From Haliotis rubra (Eukaryota): DNA of 64,000 nt. Positions 17,547-63,551 of this stretch are shown piece after piece. Within the stretch, counting starts at the first letter, position 1. Each line of letters begins with the position of its first letter. Below the pieces are notes generated by a model. The model did not search any database, had not been told where the DNA came from, and was given only the letters and a program-made list of their open reading frames with translations. The stretch is from positions 806,001-870,000 of the forward strand of contig NW_025767202.1 of assembly GCF_003918875.1 (NCBI RefSeq), given 5' to 3'. Made by a program: the position numbers and the translations under genes.

Positions 17547-17810
17547 GGTGGACTACAGAGAAACGTTACAGGCTATGCAATTTGCATCTTTTCAACCTTT
17601 TCTCCTTGAAAGGGCTCGCGTACTGTGATATTACACAAATGCTGTTGAAACCAGTGATAAACCAAACTCAGTCTCTGTACCAAGGCTCCGTGGTCTTTAG
17701 GATAGATTACACTGATGTACTGTCCGCTGAGTGGGAAATTTTGGTAGTTCGAACTCTTGAAGGAGTCATTTGTAATCAGCAGACGGTCTGTCGTTGCTGG
17801 TTGTTCCCCG

Positions 17811-20800
17811 TGTGCCGCAGTGTGCCGTATTGTGCCGCAGTGTGCCGTAGTGTGCCGTATTGTGCCGCAGTGTGCCGTATTGTGCCGTATTGTGCCGCAG
17901 TGTGCCGTATTGTGCCGTATTGTGCCGTATTGTGCCGCAATGTGCCGCAGTGTGCCGTATTGTGCCGCAGTGTGCCGCAGTGTGCCGTATTGTGCCGTAT
18001 TGTGCCGTATTGTGCCGTAGTATGCCGTAGTGTGCCGCAGTGTGCCGTATTGTGCCGTATTGTGCCGCAGTGTGCCGTATTGTGCCGTAATGTGCCGCAG
18101 TGTGCCGTATTGTGCCGCAGTGTGCCGTAGTGTGCCGTATTGTGCCGCAGTGTGCCACAGTGTGCCGTATTGTGCCGCAGTGTGCCGTATTGTGCCGCAG
18201 TGTGCCGTATTGTGCCGCAGTGTGCCGTATTGTGCCGTATTGTGCCGCAGTGTGCCACAGTGTGCCGTATTGTGCCGCAGTATGCCGTATTGTGCCGTAA
18301 TGTGCCGCAGTGTGCCGTATTGTGCCGCAGTGTGCCGCAGTGTGCCGTATTGTGCCGCAGTGTGCCACAGTGTGCCGTATTGTGCCGCAGTGTGCCGTAT
18401 TGTGCCGCCGGGTGCCGTATTGTGCCGTATTGTGCCTCAGTGTGCCGTATTGTGCCGCAGTGTGCCGTATTGTGTCACAGTGTGCCGTATTGTGCCTCAG
18501 TGTGCCGTATTGTGCCGCAGTGTGCCGTATTGTGCCGCAGTGTGCCGTATTGTGCCGCAGTGTGCCGTATTGTGCCGCAGTGTGCCGCAGTGTGCCGTAT
18601 CTTGCCGTATTGTGCCGCAGTGTGCCGTATTGTGCCGTATTGTGCCGCAGTGTGCCGTATTGTGCCGCAGTGTGCCGTATTGTGCCGCAGTGTGCCGTAT
18701 TGTGCCGCAGTGTGCCGTATCGTGCCGTATTGTGCCGTATTGTGCCGCAGTGTGCCGTATTGTGCCGCAATGTGCCGTATTGTGCCGCAGTGTGCCGTAT
18801 TGTGCCGTATTGTGCCGCAGTGTGCCGTATTGTGCCGCAGTGTGCCGTATTGTGCCGCAGTGTGCCGTATTGTGCCGTATTGTGCCGTATTGTGCCGTAT
18901 TGTGCCGCATTGTGCCGTATTGTGCCGCATTGTGCCGCATTGTGCCGTATTGTGCCGCAGTGTGCCGCAGTGTGCCGTATTGTGCCGCAGTGTGCCGTAT
19001 TGTGCCGCAGTGTGCCGTAGTGTGCCGTAGTGTGTGCCGCATTGTGCCGCAGTGTGCCGTATTGTGCCGTATTGTGCCGCAGTGTGCCGTAGTGTGCCGT
19101 ATTGCCGCAGTGTGCCGCAGTGTGCCGCAGTGTGCCGCATTGTGCCGCAGTGTGCCGCATTGTGCCGCAGTGCCAGTGTGCCGTAGTGTGCCGTATTGTG
19201 CCGCAGTGTGCCGTATTGCCGTATTGTGCCGCAGTGTGCCGTATTGTGCCGTATTGTGCCGTATTGTGCCGCAGTGTGCCGTATTGTGCCGCAGTGTGCC
19301 GTATTGTGCCGTATTGTGCCGCATTGTGCCGTAGTGTGCCGTAGTGTGCCGTAGTGTGCCGTATTGTGCCGTATTGTGCCGCAGTGTGCCGTATTGTGCC
19401 GTAATGTGCCGCAGTGTGCCGTATTGTGCCGCAGTGTGCCGTATTGTGCCGCAGTGTGCCGCAGTGTGCCGTATTGTGCCGCAGTGTGCCGTATTGTGCC
19501 GCAGTGTGCCGTATTGTGCCGCAGTGTGCCGTATTGTGCCGTATTGTGCCGCAGTGTGCCGCAGTGTGCCGTATTGTGCCGCAGTATGCCGTATTGTGCC
19601 GTAATGTGCCGCAGTGTGCCGTATTGTGCCGCAGTGTGCCGCAGTGTGCCGTATTGTGCCGCAGTGTGCCACAGTGTGCCGTATTTTGCCGCAGTGTGCC
19701 GTATTGTGCCGCCGGGTGCCGTATTGTGCCGCCGGGTGCCGTATTGTGCCGTATTGTGCCGCAGTGTGCCGTATTGTGCCGCAGTGTGCCGTATTGTGTC
19801 ACAGTGTGCCGTATTGTGCCTCAGTGTGCCGTATTGTGCCGCAGTGTGCCGTATTGTGCCGCAGTGTGCCGTATTGTGCCGCAGTGTGCCGCAGTGTGCC
19901 GTATCTTGCCGTATTGTGCCGCAGTGTGCCGTATTGTGCCGTATTGTGCCGCAGTGTGCCGTATTGTGCCGCAGTGTGCCGTATTGTGCCGCAGTGTGCC
20001 GTATTGTGCCGCAGTGTGCCGTATTGTGCCGCAGTGTGCCGTATTGTGCCGTATTGTGCCGTATTGTGCCGCAGTGTGCCGTATTGTGCCGCAGTGTGCC
20101 GTATTGTGCCGTATTGTGCCGCATTGTGCCGTATTATTGTGCCGTATTGTGCCGCAGTGTGCCGTATTGTGCCGCAGTGTGCCGTATTGTGCCGTATTGT
20201 GCCGTATTGTGCCGCAGTGTGCCGTATTGTGCCGCAGTGTGCCGTATTGTGCCAGTGTGCCGTATTGTGCCGTATTGTGCCGCAATTGTGCCGTATTGTG
20301 CCGCAGTGTGCCGTATTGTGCCGCAGTGTGCCGTATTGTGCCGTATTGTGCCGTATTGTGCCGTATTGTGCCGCAGTGTGCCGCAGTGTGCCGTATTGTG
20401 CCGTATTGTGCCGCAGTGTGCCGTATTGTGCCGTATTGTGCCGCAGTGTGCCGTATTGTGCCGTATTGTGCCGCATTGTGCCGCAGTGTGCCGTAGTGTG
20501 CCGCATTGTGCCGCAGTGTGCCGTAGTGTGCCGTATTGTGCCGCATTGTGCCGCCGCAGTGTGCCGTATTGTGCCGCAGTGTGCCGTATTGTGCCGCAGT
20601 GTGCCGCATTGTGCCGCAGTGTGCCGCAGTGTGCCGTATTGTGCCGCAGTGTGCCGCATTGTGCCGCAGTAATGTGCCGCAGTGTGCCGTATTGTGCCGC
20701 AGTGTGCCGCAGTGTGCCGCAGTGCCGCAGTGCCGCCACAGTGTGCCGTCTTGTGCCGCAGCAGTATGCCGTATTGTGCCGCAGTGTGCCGTATTGTGCC

Positions 20801-21304
20801 GCAGTGTGCCGTATTGTGCCGCAGTGTGCCGCAGTGTGCCGTATTGTGCCGCCGTGTGCCGTATTGTGCCGTATTGTGCCGCAGTGTGCCGTATTGTGCC
20901 GCAGTATGCCGTATTGTGTCACAGTGTGCCGTATTGTGCCTCAGTGTGCCGTATTGTGCCGCAGTGTGCCGTATTGTGCCGTATTGTGCCGCAGTGTGCC
21001 GCAGTGTGCCGTATTGTGCCTCAGTGTGCCGTATTGTGCCGCAGTGTGCCGTATTGTGCCGTATTGTGCCGCAGTGTGCCGCAGTGTGCCGTATTGTGCC
21101 GCAGTGTGCCGTATTGTGCCGCAGTGTGCCGTATTGTGCCGCAGTGTGCCGTATTGTGCCGCAGTGTGCCGTATTGTGCCGCAGTGTGCCGTATTGTGCC
21201 GCAGTGTGCCGTATTGTGCCGCAGTGTGCCGTATTGTGCCGCAGTGTGCCGTATTGTGCCGCAGTGTGCCGTATTGTGCCGCAGTGTGCCGTATTGTGCC
21301 GCAG
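17811..21304. repeat. 10-bp satellite, ~350 copies (TGTGCCGCAG / TGTGCCGTAT)
   Basis: Two dominant 10-mers interspersed for 3.5 kb; explains all ORFs 17459-21355. Confidence 0.99.
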
Positions 21305-22617: not shown

Positions 22618-22849
22618 GTGAGTGAGTGAATTTAGTTTTACGCCGCACCCAGCAATATTCCAGCCATATGGCGGCGGTCTGTAAATAATCGAGTCTGGTG
22701 CCGACAATCCAGTGATCAACAGCGTGATCATCGATCTACGCAATTGGAATACGACGACATGTGTCAACGAAGTCAGCGAGCGTGATCACCTGATCCCGTT
22801 AGTCGACCTTTACGACCAGCATGGGTTACTGAAGATCAATTCTAACCCG
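22618..22849 (-). mobile_element. Family B retroposon, near full length
   Basis: (GAGT)n tail, body, head ...catgggttactgaagatcaattctaacccg. Confidence 0.92.
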
Positions 22850-53894: not shown

Positions 53895-54065
53895 CTGACT
53901 GACTGACTGAGTTTGGTTTTACGCCGCTTTTAGCAATATTCCAGCAACATCACGGCGGGGGACACCAGAAATGGGCTTCATACATTGTGCCCATGTGGGG
54001 ATTCGAACCCGGGTCTTCGGGGTGACGAGCCAACGCTTTAACCATTAGGCTACCCCACCGCCCCC
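53895..54065 (-). mobile_element. SINE family A, full length, (CAGT)n tail, 13-bp TSD
   Basis: gagccgatctgga at 53882 and 54066. Confidence 0.97.
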
Positions 54066-54098
54066 GAGCCGATCTGGAGTTTAATATCGTGTGTAAGA

Positions 54099-54337
54099 GG
54101 GGGCGGTGGGGTAGTCTAGTGGTTCAAGCTTTGGCTCGTCACGCCGAAGACCCGGGTTCGATTCCCCACATGGGCATAATGTGTGAAGCCCATTTCTGGT
54201 GTCCCCCACCGTGATATTGCTGGAATATTGCTAAAAGCGGCGTAAAACTAAACTCACTCACTCACCCTCTCAGTGAGGAGACTGAGGAGCTTAATTTCCT
54301 AAACACTGAATTATGTGGACGTCTGGACTAAACTCAG
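54099..54337 (+). mobile_element. SINE family A carrying a 62-bp 3' transduction, 12-bp TSD
   Basis: tcgtgtgtaaga at 54087 and 54338; 54267-54328 matches 57064-57125. Confidence 0.92.
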
Positions 54338-54375
54338 TCGTGTGTAAGATTATTGCAGGAATACAGCTACGCACA

Positions 54376-54403
54376 TGCGTGCGTGCGTGCGTGCGTGCGT
54401 GTG
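54376..54403. repeat. (GCGT)n microsatellite
   Basis: Direct reading. Confidence 0.9.
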
Positions 54404-54691
54404 CGGTTTATTAATGCCAAGTTATTAGCGGGGGCACGTTGCCCGTCCTCTTAGCTGACGCAATTATATGTGCAGAGTTGCGTCACTCGGGCACCTATAT
54501 GTTCGAACCATGGTTCTATCGCACCACATTTCTATATTGTCAGAACCATGCCGGTGTTCTTGGGTTCCACCAAAATGGTAAAATGTCTGAGACCGACATC
54601 ACTTCCGACTTTCCTTCCACATCCAGTTGATAAACCGTGTTAAAAATAGAATATTTTTCAAAGAGACATAAAAACCCAAACTCACATTATA

Positions 54692-54858
54692 GTGAGTGAG
54701 TGAGTATAGTTTTACGTCGCTTTTAGAAATATCCCAGCAATATCATGGCGGGGGACATCGGGAACGGGCTTCATACAATATACCAATGCGGGGAATCGAA
54801 CCCGGGTCTTCAGCATGACGAGCGAACGCTTTAACCACTAGGCTACCCCACCGCTCCC
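54692..54858 (-). mobile_element. SINE family A, full length
   Basis: Complete head-body-tail. Confidence 0.93.
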
Positions 54859-55119
54859 TCACGTAGAACTAACCACTTGATATACCATGCCGCAGTTTAA
54901 CATGGACACATTATACTGAGTCCGAGCCGACCACCCCCCGAAAATTGCCTTTATTTTGAGCGCCAGGAAAGGTAACAATAAGTTTCATCTGTTTTGGCGA
55001 CCTGAGATTGAACCACCGAGTTGTGCAGTCCGGGAAGACCCCCTGTCCGTAAGACTACGGAGACAGCATTGAAATTGAGCTTTTTGTCTTATTGAACATT
55101 TGTTTTGCTAGACCTGGGG

Positions 55120-55334
55120 ACCTGTGAAGATCCGGGTTAGAATTGGTCTTCAGTAGCCCATGCTTGCCGTAAGGGGCGACTAACGGGATCGGTGGTCAGG
55201 CTCGCTATCTTGACACATGTCATCCTATCCCAGTGGCGTAGACCGATGTTCATGCTGTTGATCACTGGATTATTTAACGACTGCCGCCACATAGAAGGAA
55301 TATTGCTCAGTGCGGTGTTAAACAACAAACCAAC
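55120..55334 (+). mobile_element. Family B, full head, (CAAC)-type tail
   Basis: cctgtgaagatccgggttagaattggtcttcag...gcggtgttaaacaacaaaccaac. Confidence 0.9.
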
Positions 55335-56899
55335 GCTCTACCAGGGAGTAGTATATTGGAAGAAACATCTCCAGCGAAACCTAATTGCCAGTAAAAGCAA
55401 TCAAAGCTCGTTCGTTTGTGAATGTGAACAGTCTCCCCATTTTACTCGGCTTTTTATCAGCTTCAGATGTCCAGTAATTCATCAACGTCAACACAGGAAC
55501 AATTAATTCAGCTTAATCGCTGTAACACGTGGACATAAAGCCATTGCTATTAGTGTTGTCAGGTAATACTTTTTCTGTCGTGTTCACCCCTCAAAAAACA
55601 CATCAATAACTGGCAATTGTTTACACTAAAATTCTCATAGATTTACATTTACTTGGGTTTGCAGGTATTTATATATGAATCTTACGTACTTACGTCGGTG
55701 TTTTCACAGCATTTGCACGTGCATTGAATTTGTTTGATTACCGTGTGGCTCGTTCAATGAACTTGAATAGCACGTTATTCATATCTTTTACACTCAAGTA
55801 GATTTTAACATTTCCACGGAACATGATTTACACGCCTTTTACATGCCCCTGATGGCCCGTTGAGTCGGCACTCCCCGAGCACGTGCTGAATGTCTGGCCC
55901 GTGCAGCACTTGCGGTTTACTTGACTGTCTACCAAGAGCCCGGCGGTTTGAATTCCATGCGAAGATTTGACCCCCTGTTTTGCCTTCTACCAATTTAACC
56001 CCCACAATCTTTCACGATAGCTTTAAAATGCATACACTTGTTTCTTTGAGAGCCCTAACAGTTGTTAAATCGGTCCTGCGTTTCTCTGTTCTTCTGGAGA
56101 AACACACTTCAGCATACTTAGCGCAGGAAAGTGCAGGGCGCCGAAGGTTTTGCCAGTAAGTAATTCTACGACACGTGTTCGAGGGGATTTTCGCGTAATT
56201 TTTAACATTCTTGAAATAACTTGTGTGTCAAAAAGGTTTTGTTTGGAAGCAGTGATGGAATGTCTTTAACAAGTTGGCCTGTTTATGCATGGGAGTTGTA
56301 GTATTCCACTTCACTTCGCATTCTGACTTCTTCGCATAGCTGTTAACGCTAAAGTGTGAATGCTTAGCCTAGCATGCTAAACAACGCTCGCAACACATTC
56401 AGATGGTGTGAAAACGTTGTTTTACTCTTTAATAAAAATTAACAAAATGAATCTATTAAAGAGAAAGGAAGAGAAAAACACATACAACATATATCATGGC
56501 GACGTTGTGCATATTAATTTGAGAAATGGAATAAACAAACGAACGTCATTTTCTTAAATAAAGAAAACCCCAACAAATGGTTAAAAATACGTACATGATA
56601 TGCACTTAAAGATTTTTAAAAATTATTTTTGTGAATATCAGTTCATCTTTAACTTCATCTCATATACACCGGATTCTGTCGATTTACGTGTGGTCTTTCT
56701 TTCATGTTGTTAGGCAGTCAGCCCGAGGGGACAAGCTGACCCGGGCTTGACCGTCTACAAGAACCCACCAAGACAAGTGGCAGAGAGTGCCCGGGGTGGT
56801 GTGGGCTCCCTGGACCCTCATCCACAAGTATTGACCACTTGAGACTCAGTCCGACTTGACCTTTGATACACCACGTATATGTAACTCTCAGTGAGGAGA

Positions 56900-57063
56900 T
56901 GGCGGTAGATGGCCAGTGGTTAAAGCGTTCGCTCATCACGCCGAAGGCCCGGGTTCGATTCCCCACATGGGTACAATATGTGAAGCCCATTTCTGGTGTC
57001 CCCCGCCGTGATATTGCTGGAATATATTAAAAAGCAGCGTAAAACTAAACTCACTCACTCACC
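56900..57063 (+). mobile_element. SINE family A, 15-bp TSD; putative source of the 54099 copy
   Basis: ctctcagtgaggaga at 56885 and 57064. Confidence 0.95.
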
Positions 57064-57444
57064 CTCTCAGTGAGGAGACTGGGGAGCTCAATTTCCTAAC
57101 CACTGAATTATGTGGACGTCTGGACATGTACACTTACATAGAAGGGATGCATACAGACGAAGTAACTAAATACAAGAAAGTTTGGGAATTCGGCAAACAG
57201 TGAACTATTTTTGTTTTAAAGAAAGAAACTTTGTCGTGATCTCAGTTGACCAGTATTCTAACGTCAAAATACTCTGGCGAGTTACGACGATGTGAACGAA
57301 TATGGCGTGTGAAAACTCTAGTGTAGAGGCAGCAATCATCTATGGGACTTTATATGCGTGCGTATGTGTTTATAACGTATGTGAAATAAATATCACTTCA
57401 ACCAGTAATGCATGTTATGTACTCAATTATGTCACTTGTAATAT

Positions 57445-57614
57445 TCGGGGTCGGTTGGTCAGGCTCGCTGGCTTGGATGACACATGTCATCGGTTCCCTA
57501 TTGCGCAGATCGATGCTCATATTGTTGATCACTGGATTGTGTGGTCCAGACTCGATTATTTACAGACCGCCGCCATAGAGCTGGAATATTGCTGAGTGCG
57601 GCGTAAAACTAAAC
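57445..57614 (+). mobile_element. 5'-truncated family B, 13-bp TSD
   Basis: tcacttgtaatat at 57432 and 57615. Confidence 0.93.
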
Positions 57615-58985
57615 TCACTTGTAATATCACATGTCAAAACTGTTCAGTTCGTTGCCGCCCGATTTTTCACCGAATAGGTCCCTCTGTAGGCAGAGACACG
57701 TGCAGCACGTGCTGTAGAGAATGGTGTGGGCTATTCCGAGTGTAAACAATCCCATTTGCTCCTCTCTCAAGCAGACAATTAGAGAGACAGAGGTTCCAGA
57801 CCCGCCAAGGGATACCTTTTGTTCTTCAACTTTTGAAGAACTTGTTTCTCTTTAGAACTGAAGCGCGTGTTATAGGTTCACTACGGAGGACATTTACCCC
57901 TGTCTTTGAAGTGGTCCGTTTTGTCATTTCATCACAAGCACTTTAAAGTTAAAGAAAAACTATAAAGAAATTATCCCCAACTGGTGACTCTCACCTGGAT
58001 GTTTGTATTGAGTACGTCTTTCACGGTATAGATGGGGAGGCATTCCATCTCCCGCTGTATGTACAACAAGTTGAACTCAGTGCATTAGGTTCAAATTAAA
58101 GTTTGTCAAAACACGTACACGACTGCTGACTGAACGAAACGGTTTCATCTCATTCTCAACTGGTATGTTTTATGATATAAATGAGTGCAACCCTGGTTCC
58201 TGTATTGACGCTCTATGAAAAATGTTGAATATAAAAATAGATATATTGAAACGTTCAACCATACACGTTTAAGACAACAGTGCGCTAGTGCAAATCTAGC
58301 TTTAATTGGGGGTGTTTGACTTGGGTCGCACCATACCCGGTGCTCCACGATGAACCTGTTGAGATTCCTTCAAGACAAAATCGCTTAATCGCTTTATTTG
58401 AGAAAACGTTTGATAACTAGTTAGCCCGAAGCGCAATTTACAAAGAAAACATTATTTAGCGGTCGCGAAATACCGTCTTCTGTGAGTTATCGGTACAGAC
58501 GCTTGCATAGCGACGAGGGCCTCCCAGATGGCGCTTGTTAGTACAGCTCCTAGGGTTGATAATCAAATCGAGAAAAAAGCGGTGTAGTAATGCACATGTA
58601 CATCGGGTCTGTAAACAGGAGGGGGGAAGCGGATTCGTTATAATATGATGCAAGCTGGTGTGTTCTGATATCGTGCGGTAGTTCTTGAGTAGTGCCATGT
58701 TGGCCAAAGTTTGCACACGAACAAGTAAACGATGTCCCCCAAACGAGGCAATGGTGGCTTGCACGTGCATGGTGCTGAGTGTCAACCTTTGTACACAGAG
58801 TTATAGTGTATATAGTACACCGTGATTAGGTGGGACGCTGAATCTCGAAGTCGAGGCTGATCTTCCATAGAGTAGATATAGAGTGGGAGCATTGTCACCC
58901 ATACAATGAATAGGGGAGATCCACATATATTTGGAATATAGGAAATATTCATGAAGATGTCGCCTCGACTTTACTAATTTACGAT

Positions 58986-60740: not shown

Positions 60741-61060
60741 TGAGTGAGTGAATGAGTGAGTGAGTCAGTCAGTCAGTGAGTTTAGTTTTACGCCGCACTC
60801 AGCAATATTCCAGCCATATGGCGGCGGTCTGTAAATAATCGAGTCTGGACCAGACAATCCAGTGATCAATAACATGAACATCGATCTACAATTGGGATAC
60901 GATGACATGTGTCAACGAAGTCAGCGAGCCTGATCACCTGATCCCGTTAGTCGCCTCTTACGACAAGCATGGGTTACTGAAGGCCAATTCTAACCCGGAT
61001 CTTCACGGGGAGACAAGCATGGGTCACTGAAGATCAATTCTAACCCGGATCTTCCAGGGT
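60741..61060 (-). mobile_element. Family B, full length with duplicated 5' head
   Basis: Head present twice (60962-61009, 61012-61060); decayed TSD gtgttttaagag/gtgtcataagag. Confidence 0.93.
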
Positions 61061-62423: not shown

Positions 62424-63551
62424 CCCTCCTTTGTCCACTCGCCCACCCCTCCTTTGTCAACTCAGCCACCCTCCCCACCCACCCTCCTTTGTCCACACAC
62501 CCACCCTCCTTTGTCCCTCTCGCCCCCACCCTTTGCCCTCTCGCCCACCTCTCCTTTGTCCACACGCCCACCCTCCTTTGACACCCGCCCACCCTCCTTT
62601 GCCCACTCGCCTACCCTCCTTTGTCCACTCGCCCGCCCCGTTGTCCACTCGCCCACCCTCCTTGTCCACTCGCCCGCCCTCCTTTGTCCACTCGCCCATC
62701 CCTTTGTCCACACGCCCACCCCTCCTCCTTTGCCCGTCCCTCCTTGTTGTCCACTCGCCCACCCTCCCTTTGTCCACTCGCCTCGCTGCCCCCCTTTGTC
62801 GACCGCCCGCCCACCCCTCCGCCCACCCCCTCCCCTCGCCCACCCTCCTTTGTCCACTCGCCCACCCCTCCTTTGTCCACTCGCCCACCCCCCTTTGTCC
62901 ACTCGCCCACCCCTCCCCTTTGTCCACCCTCTCGTCCCTCGCCCTCCTTTGTCCACTCGCCCACCCTCCTTTGTCCACTCGCCCACCCTCCTTTGTCCAC
63001 TCGCCCAGCCTCCTTTGTCCACTCGCCCACCCCTCCTTGTCCACCGCCCACCCCTCCTTGTCCACTCGCCCACCCCTTTGTCCACCGCCCACCACCCTTT
63101 GTCCACCGCCCACCCCTCCTTTGTCCACTCGCCCACCCCTCCTTTGTCCACCCCAACCACTCCTTTTCCACTCGCCCACCCTCCTTTGTCCACTCGCCCA
63201 CCCTCCTTTGTCCACTCGCCCACCCTCCCTTGTCCACCTCGCCCACCCCCTTTGTCCCCTCGCCCACCCTCCCTTGTCCCCTCGCCAAAGCCCCTTTGTC
63301 CACTCGCCCACCCCTCCTTTGCCCCTCGCCAAAGCCTCCTTTGTCCACTCGCCCACCCCTCCTTTGCCCCTCGCCAAAGCCCCCTTTGTCCACCTCGCCC
63401 ACCCCTCCTTTGCCCCTCGCCAAAGCCCCTTTGTCCACCTCGCCCACCCCTCCTTTGCCCTCTCGCCAAAGCCCCTTTGTCCACTCGCCCACCCCTCCTT
63501 TGCCCTCTCCCAAAGCCCCTTTGTCCCTGCCCACCCTCCTTTGCCCTCCTT
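62424..63551. repeat. ~23-bp C-rich minisatellite, ~48 copies
   Basis: ctcctttgtccactcgcccaccc; gccaaagccc variant after ~63285; explains ORFs 62367-63762. Confidence 0.97.

What the first reader, a model, noticed from the sequence alone, without database searches (positions are those of the whole stretch)
54087..57125. Local source-daughter SINE pair linked by a 3' transduction
The SINE at 56900-57063 has TSD ctctcagtgaggaga. The SINE at 54099 is followed by that same 15-mer and the next 47 bp of flank (54267-54328 vs 57064-57125; 59/62 identical), then a short tail-like taaactcag, all enclosed by its own TSD tcgtgtgtaaga. The first T4+ run after the 56.9-kb copy is at ~57207, so Pol III read-through is feasible. 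Inference: a read-through transcript was retroposed only 2.8 kb from its source. Caveat: the putative source now has a decayed A box (tggcggtagatggccagtgg) while the daughter is near consensus, implying later decay, gene conversion or a template switch.
Basis: partly seen in the sequence, partly recalled or inferred. Interest (0 to 1): 0.7.

Follow-up and report, generated by a model that had tools for sequence, protein, structure and literature searches.

The report
Young SINE captured its neighbour's flank
A young jumping repeat carries a short piece of DNA matching the end of an older repeat 2.8 kb away, but it is not that repeat's offspring; the piece was likely pasted in by a local repair or copying slip, which mimics a parent-daughter link and occurs at least once more in this genome.

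Summary
Both target-site duplications (TSDs) and the 59/62 tag are there. The tag occurs at only these two places in the assembly, and the junction stands in contigs of two organisms.

The read-through model fails. The 54.1-kb copy (D) shares none of the 56.9-kb copy's (S) private changes. It carries two marks typical of a younger subfamily that S lacks, and ends in that subfamily's G-type tail. D is a chimera: young body, about 80 bp matching S (tail plus flank), then its own tail, all in one TSD.

A genome-wide tail pattern found a second case whose only donor lies 6 kb away. Three more cases have untraced donors.

Most likely a break or gap near D's tail was repaired from the neighbouring homologous SINE and rejoined at 2-nt microhomology (DDSA or one-sided-invasion type). 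A double template jump by the reverse transcriptase is the main rival. No insert-free D allele was seen, so timing is open. The scan's notes showed no earlier report.

The parts
54087..54098 (+). 5' target-site duplication of D (12 bp)
   Evidence: exact copies at 54087 and 54338 only
54099..54240 (+). Body of D: full-length tRNA-type SINE carrying young-subfamily states at 54133 (col 35 G) and 54175 (col 77 C); not derived from S
54241..54328 (+). Tract matching S (85 of 88 identical to 57038-57125): end of the element, C-type tail, S's 15-bp TSD and 47 bp of S's flank. The left switch point lies somewhere between 54240 and the tail repeats (inferred)
54327..54328 (+). 2-nt microhomology (AC) joining the captured flank to D's own tail
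   Evidence: junction print
54329..54339 (+). D's own terminal tail, G-type (TAAACTCAG plus TC shared with the TSD); shorter than any of 22 sampled G-type tails
54338..54349 (+). 3' target-site duplication of D
   Evidence: junction present in contigs of X1 and X19
56885..56899 (+). 5' target-site duplication of S (15 bp)
56900..57063 (+). S: older C-tailed copy of the same SINE family with a private, decayed head; donor of the captured tract
57064..57125 (+). Donor tag: S's 3' TSD plus 47 bp of unique flank
57208..57217 (+). First T runs downstream of S (T5, T4); the captured tract stops 82 nt before them
53900..54065 (-). Inverted G-tailed copy 33 bp upstream of D (92% complementary); can fold back on D and is a possible, untested cause of a break near D's tail

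Best explanation
D is a young SINE whose 3' end holds about 80 bp matching the tail and flank of the older SINE S 2.8 kb away, likely copied in from chromosomal DNA by homology-primed repair rather than by retroposition of S. Shown: D's body differs from S and carries young-subfamily marks, its last tail is G-type, the inner tail and tag match S, one TSD encloses all, and the right junction has 2 nt of microhomology with no loss of D sequence. Inferred: D inserted by ordinary target-primed reverse transcription. A gap or break about 10 nt before its tail repeats (unfinished second strand at insertion, or a later break) left an end with about 150 bp of homology to S. That end invaded S, was extended through S's tail and 62 bp of flank, came off and was joined to D's remaining tail. 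This is DDSA or one-sided-invasion type repair using a nearby repeat.
For: Chimeric make-up. Independent second case D2 (G000:C1:3044.4-3044.7 kb), found by a tail pattern blind to distance: G-subfamily body, C-type inner tail, 54-bp unique insert, G-type outer tail, enclosing TSD. Its insert has one other place in the genome, 6.05 kb away on the opposite strand, directly behind a C-tailed SINE; a random donor lies within 7 kb with chance about 1e-5. D2 also lacks its donor's private 3' changes. In D, D2, L123, L174 and L179 the subfamily marks put the switch to donor-type sequence in an interval that includes the column where the outer piece resumes, as expected if one element was opened and refilled. 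S is older than D: its tail-flank contig is present in organism I at about 6% divergence, and C-tailed copies are more diverged than G-tailed ones (median 8.3% vs 1.7%). One homologous end plus one microhomology end fits the DDSA description read in PMC3276153. Gaps at the 3' end of new L1 insertions that turn into breaks are proposed in bioRxiv 2024.12.14.628481 (passages).
Against: No allele of D without the insert was seen: organism H already has it, and organism I and run X3 do not cover the locus. The complementary-halves pattern is also expected from a reverse-transcriptase jump out and back. Only 2 of 5 TSD-enclosed cases with a unique insert of 40 bp or more had a traceable donor. L123 and the C247 case had none genome-wide, and the C558 case had none behind a SINE within 40 kb (not searched genome-wide). 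Five of six outer pieces start within about 20 nt of the tail repeats, which suits an early slip of reverse transcription as well, though the search patterns favour short outer pieces. D's exact seven-column haplotype occurs with a G tail in 2 copies and with a C tail in 1 other copy, so the body marks are not exclusive to G-tailed copies. D2 shares 35G and a CpG-type change at col 31 with its donor.
Confidence: 0.55

Rival explanations
1. Double template jump during D's insertion: the LINE reverse transcriptase primed on a G-subfamily RNA tail, copied about 11 nt, jumped at 2-nt microhomology to S's flank (nascent RNA or DNA near the target site), copied the tag and S's tail, and returned by homology to the G-subfamily RNA.
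For: One TSD encloses all parts and all are in sense orientation, the pattern given for template-switch chimeras in PMC13174262 (passages). Outer pieces cluster near the tail. Insert and element look similar in age (3 of 88 differences to the donor vs 5 private changes in D's body), and the insert predates the split from organism H. No reverse case (old body, young inner tail, unique insert, enclosing TSD) was called in 49 of 96 reverse-pattern matches examined.
Against: Needs two jumps, the first almost without homology onto a site kilobases away. Diffusible RNA donors give no reason for 2.8- and 6-kb distances. The reverse-case screen under-calls TSDs in old copies (it missed one in L223) and left L250 ambiguous.
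Confidence: 0.3
2. One reading: a Pol III read-through RNA of S was retroposed 2.8 kb away; the differences arose later by decay of S and gene conversion of D's body.
For: The tag starts exactly at S's end, is in the same orientation, is 95% identical and unique; no T4 run lies between S and the end of the tag. A G-tailed inverted copy 33 bp away shares 35G and 77C and could act as a conversion donor.
Against: Does not explain the G-type terminal tail next to the TSD. That tail has T at col 151 where the inverted neighbour has C, and D lacks the neighbour's 21A and 118G. D has 0 of S's five body changes although S is the older copy. D2 shows the same cross-subfamily build. A survey of 118,489 AluY confirmed no transduction (bioRxiv 2024.04.29.591526, parts 1-2 of 3 read).
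Confidence: 0.06
3. Unrelated events or artefact: a very short G-type insertion landed next to an older local duplication, or the assembly is wrong.
For: Short 5'-truncated G-type insertions close behind older tails are common in the pattern hits, each with its own nested TSD.
Against: Here the TSD encloses the whole unit and no nested TSD exists. The junction is in contigs of two organisms, and the two tags differ at 3 positions.
Confidence: 0.03

Closest known systems
Duplication-dependent strand annealing (DDSA; Fiston-Lavier 2007, known here only through passages of PMC3276153; primary paper not held) and one-sided invasion (Belmaaza and Chartrand 1994, seen as a citation only; content recalled)
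   Same: A repeat copy is refilled from an ectopic copy of the same repeat, synthesis runs past the repeat into unique flank, and the far end is a microhomology join.
   Different: Described for segmental duplications, up to tens of kb in the case read; here the tract is about 80 bp, sits inside a SINE's own TSD, has a donor 3-6 kb away and may be tied to the insertion event.
3' transduction by L1/SVA and the sought-for Alu transduction (bioRxiv 2024.04.29.591526, parts 1-2 of 3 read)
   Same: Extra sequence between element end and 3' TSD that maps behind another copy, in the same orientation.
   Different: Recipient and donor are of different subfamilies, the recipient keeps its own terminal tail, and the donor is older and local, so the tag does not mark the parent.
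Template-switch chimeric retroinsertions (U6/L1, Alu/L1; PMC13174262 and PMC2912911, passages read)
   Same: [quoted passage not shown]
   Different: Those join a second RNA at the 5' side and do not return; here a local unique flank is enclosed between two parts of one element.
Mollusc SINEs with LINE-type tandem-repeat tails, e.g. Haliotis LP-SINEs (PMC4758252, passages and section 10 read)
   Same: Short tandem-repeat tail preceded by an ACTAAA hexamer, tail shared between a tRNA-headed family and a second family (57446-57619), variable TSDs.
   Different: No published consensus was aligned here, so the family name is not assigned; the host being an abalone is recalled and echoed by unchecked scan notes.

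Membership tests
SINE 3' transduction (Pol III read-through) | Extra sequence between element end and a distant 3' TSD | tested here: met
   62-bp tag plus 9 nt before the TSD at 54338
SINE 3' transduction (Pol III read-through) | Extra sequence maps at 90% or more directly behind another copy, same orientation, not a segmental duplication | tested here: met
   59/62 at 57064; unique genome-wide; outer flanks unrelated
SINE 3' transduction (Pol III read-through) | T4+ terminator downstream of the transduced segment | tested here: met
   T5 at 57208, but 82 nt beyond the end of the tag
SINE 3' transduction (Pol III read-through) | Offspring and source belong to the same subfamily and share the source's variants | tested here: not met
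   D has 35G, 77C and a G-type terminal tail; S has 35C, 77T and a C-type tail; 0 of S's five body changes are in D
DDSA / one-sided invasion repair | Homologous repeat at one end of the copied tract | tested here: met
   D-S bodies 90.6% identical over 149 bp leading into the tract
DDSA / one-sided invasion repair | Other end joined by microhomology or end-joining | tested here: met
   2-nt AC overlap in D; one extra base, no overlap, in D2
DDSA / one-sided invasion repair | Recipient existed before capture (allele without insert) | tested here: inconclusive
   Organism H has the insert; X22 and X3 do not cover D
DDSA / one-sided invasion repair | Dependence on a DNA break and recombination proteins | not testable with these tools
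   Needs experiment
Reverse-transcriptase template-switch chimera | All parts sense-oriented inside one TSD | tested here: met
Reverse-transcriptase template-switch chimera | Parts arrive in one event (no intermediate allele, equal age) | tested here: inconclusive
   3 of 88 vs 5 private body changes; both predate the A-H split
tRNA-derived SINE | tRNA-related head with Pol III boxes | tested here: inconclusive
   Rfam tRNA hits of 22-24 bits (gathering 29) on the two neighbouring copies, none on D; ARAGORN found 0. A B-box-like motif is visible in the sequence (motif recalled)
tRNA-derived SINE | Short, interspersed, non-coding, variable TSD, tandem-repeat tail | tested here: met
   60 near-full copies in 464 kb; 81 of 149 full-length copies have a TSD next to the tail
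tRNA-derived SINE | 3' end shared with a partner LINE | tested here: inconclusive
   No long ORF with an RT-like motif followed by this tail in the 10-kb pieces held

The most novel reading that the evidence does not exclude
Newly inserting SINEs of this family recurrently finish their 3' ends by copying the tail and unique flank of an older SINE within about 10 kb. This insertion-coupled, proximity-driven capture mimics 3' transduction, moves unique DNA locally, and would be filtered out by transduction pipelines that demand the same subfamily or drop donors within 10 kb.
Probability: 0.35. Interest if true: 0.55.

Novelty: new variant of a known kind. Interest (0 to 1): 0.38.

Why it matters
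3' tags are the standard way to name the active parent of a retrotransposon. Here the tag points to an older neighbour that is not the parent, so such tags can mislead. True transduction by Pol III SINEs was not confirmed among 118,489 AluY. That survey required source and offspring of one subfamily, and a dog LINE-1 survey dropped hits within 10 kb (PMC13141329, passages); events like this would be discarded by either rule. The C/G tail dimorphism of this family is a natural label that lets local repeat-primed capture be counted and dated genome-wide. The locus itself shows no sign of function, and the events are rare.

Tried and rejected
Tag as a subfamily tail: rejected. S's head as a subfamily head: rejected. 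Assembly artefact: rejected. Terminal 9 nt taken from a look-alike 40 nt further down S's flank: 6 of 9 letters match vs an exact match to the G-type tail (by eye). Splicing of a long RNA running to the second-family SINE at 57446-57619: the junction has no GT-AG on either strand (by eye). Empty-site or insert-free alleles: the first read lay was swamped by SINE contigs; the second showed no cover of D in X22 and X3, which proves nothing. The collapsed tag contig in X19 may reflect bubble removal, so I draw no gene-conversion claim from it. Flank-sharing screen of 162 tails in fetched DNA: only D/S apart from long duplications and arrays. Donor searches that failed: L123, C247 (31, 45, 51), C558 (77, 83; a weak E=0.003 hit 3 kb away is not behind a SINE), and L174, L179, L250, C2111, C2335, C2764 locally. 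Inverted neighbour as a general trigger: D has one at about 35 bp (6 of 183 copies have one within 100 bp), but D2, L123, L174 and L179 do not. Partner LINE not found. The Rfam miRNA hits are the inverted SINE pair, below gathering score. Papers not held: the DDSA primary paper, Gilbert 2005 and a LINE gene-conversion paper. No supplements were read. No RNA runs were examined.

Full report
1. Observation. The sequence is as described. D spans 54099-54337 between 12-bp TSDs at 54087 and 54338. S spans 56900-57063 between 15-bp TSDs at 56885 and 57064. D's tail is followed by S's TSD and 47 bp of S's flank (59 of 62 identical), then 9 tail-like bases. In the 1.38-Gb assembly the tag has 2 matches by DNA search and 2 by a 25-nt pattern with up to 2 mismatches; S's head has 1. 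Public contigs confirm the D junction in run X1 (0 differences over 54267-54366; possibly the assembly's own sample) and in run X19 of organism H (1 difference over 54299-54366). Organism H differs by 49 letters in 1640 and organism I by 101 in 1683 in nearby unique DNA. Run X22 (organism I) has one tag-bearing contig that ends 33 letters upstream of the laid piece, as expected if S's repeat tail is there (inference), and no cover of D. Run X3 also lacks cover of D. Neither hole proves absence.

2. Subfamilies. Copies from fetched DNA fall into C-tailed (ACTC repeats) and G-tailed (AGTC repeats) groups. In the unbiased 464 kb (window plus 40 neighbouring pieces, 60 near-full copies, D left out, 55 typed), column 35G occurs in 11 of 15 G-tailed and 1 of 40 C-tailed copies, and 35G with 77C in 7 of 15 vs 0 of 40. 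In 1.22 Mb that includes pattern-chosen loci the figures are 49 of 56 vs 10 of 120 and 20 of 56 vs 2 of 120. G-tailed copies are younger (median divergence 1.7% vs 8.3%). D has 35G and 77C; S has neither. D's last bases are a G-type tail, while its inner tail is S's C-type tail with the same repeat count. D shares none of S's private changes (cols 40, 52, 83, 131-134, 141 and the head) and has five of its own. D and S differ at 14 of 123 body positions and 3 of 88 positions in tail plus tag (p=0.04). Against over-reading: D's exact seven-column haplotype is found with a G tail twice and with a C tail once besides D, and its terminal tail is shorter than all 22 sampled G tails. Neither point makes S the parent.

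3. Recurrence. Patterns for a C-type tail followed by a G-type tail gave 15 matches (all examined) and 44 matches (33 examined, the rest being arrays, duplicates or already seen). Most are ordinary nested insertions with their own TSD. TSD-enclosed two-tail elements were D, D2 (L096/L114), L123 (present twice as a 99.9% duplicate region), L140, L174 and L179. L097/L117 has the same build with a matching tandem array 0.5 kb upstream, but no TSD was called. A C/C pattern (165 matches, 100 listed, 23 printed) added C247, C558 and C2167. Five cases have a unique insert of 40 bp or more. D's donor is 2.8 kb away. D2's 54-bp insert has one other site, 6.05 kb away on the opposite strand, directly behind a C-tailed SINE. 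D2 was found without regard to distance, and chance proximity is about 1e-5. L123 and C247 have no donor by genome-wide search or in 20-35 kb each side. C558 has none within 40 kb and was not searched genome-wide. So 2 of 5 were traced, and both are local. The reverse pattern (G then C) gave 96 matches; 49 were examined and none was called as an old body with a young inner tail, unique insert and enclosing TSD. That screen under-calls old TSDs, and L250 stays ambiguous.

4. Mechanism. Shown: D is a young body plus an S-matching tract plus its own tail in one TSD, with long homology at the left junction and 2 nt at the right, and nothing of D is lost. In five cases the subfamily marks place the left switch in an interval that includes the column where the outer piece resumes. 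Inferred, best (0.55): an end near D's tail invaded the homologous S, was extended through 62 bp of flank and rejoined by microhomology. This matches DDSA as described in PMC3276153 (passages). The end could come from unfinished second-strand synthesis at insertion, as proposed for L1 (bioRxiv 2024.12.14.628481, passages), or from a later break. D forms a 166-bp inverted pair with a copy 33 bp away, but the other cases lack such a partner. Rival (0.30): the reverse transcriptase jumped early from a G-type RNA to local donor RNA or DNA and back. Clustering of outer pieces near the tail, similar ages and the lack of reverse cases fit it; locality needs an extra assumption. The two give the same product, and only an insert-free allele or the donor statistics can part them. 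Plain read-through transduction (0.06) fails on subfamily and on the terminal tail.

5. Comparison with what is known. It looks like a 3' transduction and meets three of the four criteria taken from the Alu survey (bioRxiv 2024.04.29.591526, parts 1-2 of 3 read), but fails the same-subfamily criterion, so it is not filed there. It works like DDSA or one-sided invasion, with the pre-capture allele untested. The element is a short interspersed repeat with tRNA-like head and tandem tail. The tRNA match is below Rfam's threshold, no partner LINE was found, and no family name is assigned; PMC4758252 (passages, section 10) describes similar tails in Haliotis. The abalone host is my recall, echoed by two unchecked scan notes. 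Other papers seen: PMC11481361, PMC13174262, PMC7980453, PMC4666360, PMC7407515, PMC4888836, PMC2912911, PMC13141329 (passages); PMC8857657 (abstract and outline). Literature searches (listings only, open-access library) showed no report of SINEs capturing a neighbouring SINE's flank inside their own TSD. Several key older papers were not held, so this is no proof of absence. The scan's notes held nothing similar.

6. Verdict. Observation confirmed; interpretation partly supported. A real, rare, recurring local capture that mimics transduction; a new variant of known repeat-primed copying, with no sign of function at this locus. Interest 0.38.

Noticed in passing
window 53900-54264: Head-to-head inverted SINE pair, 166-bp arms, 92% complementary, 33-bp spacer; folds at -197.6 kcal/mol as DNA. 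Only 6 of 183 copies have an inverted partner within 100 bp.
   Followed up: partly
G000:C1336 (L188), C2283 (L189), C2770 (L180): Three loci where the second SINE family sits inside the head of a G-tailed copy at nearly the same column (20-28): a composite subfamily or a preferred target site.
   Followed up: no
L223, L230, L232, L238, L243: Old C-type copies holding a G-type 3' part in register, as if new insertions were joined to the target copy by homology at their 5' end.
   Followed up: partly
G000:C447, C105, C69, C274, C303, C410, C554, C2334 and others: Many tandem arrays built from the SINE's last 50-100 bp plus a few flank bases; SINE multimers are described for bivalves in PMC11481361 (passage).
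   Followed up: no
L140, L151, L166, L072 and similar: Recurrent junction of a tail to consensus column 99, duplicating the last 60 bp inside one TSD, probably through a TC microhomology.
   Followed up: partly
window 57446-57619 and copies at 22625-22798, 38963-39136, 60775-60946: Second SINE family sharing the last 50 bp and tail with the first; resembles the Haliotis LP-SINE description, not aligned to a published consensus.
   Followed up: partly
window 17810-21304, 28055-28873, 29857-31474, 48533-49241, 62424-63543: Minisatellite arrays; the 35-bp unit at 28055-28868 contains a stretch like the SINE head.
   Followed up: no
G000:C401 vs C2778 (L183, L204): 9.9 kb at 99.9% identity between two contigs: an uncollapsed haplotype or very recent duplication.
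   Followed up: no
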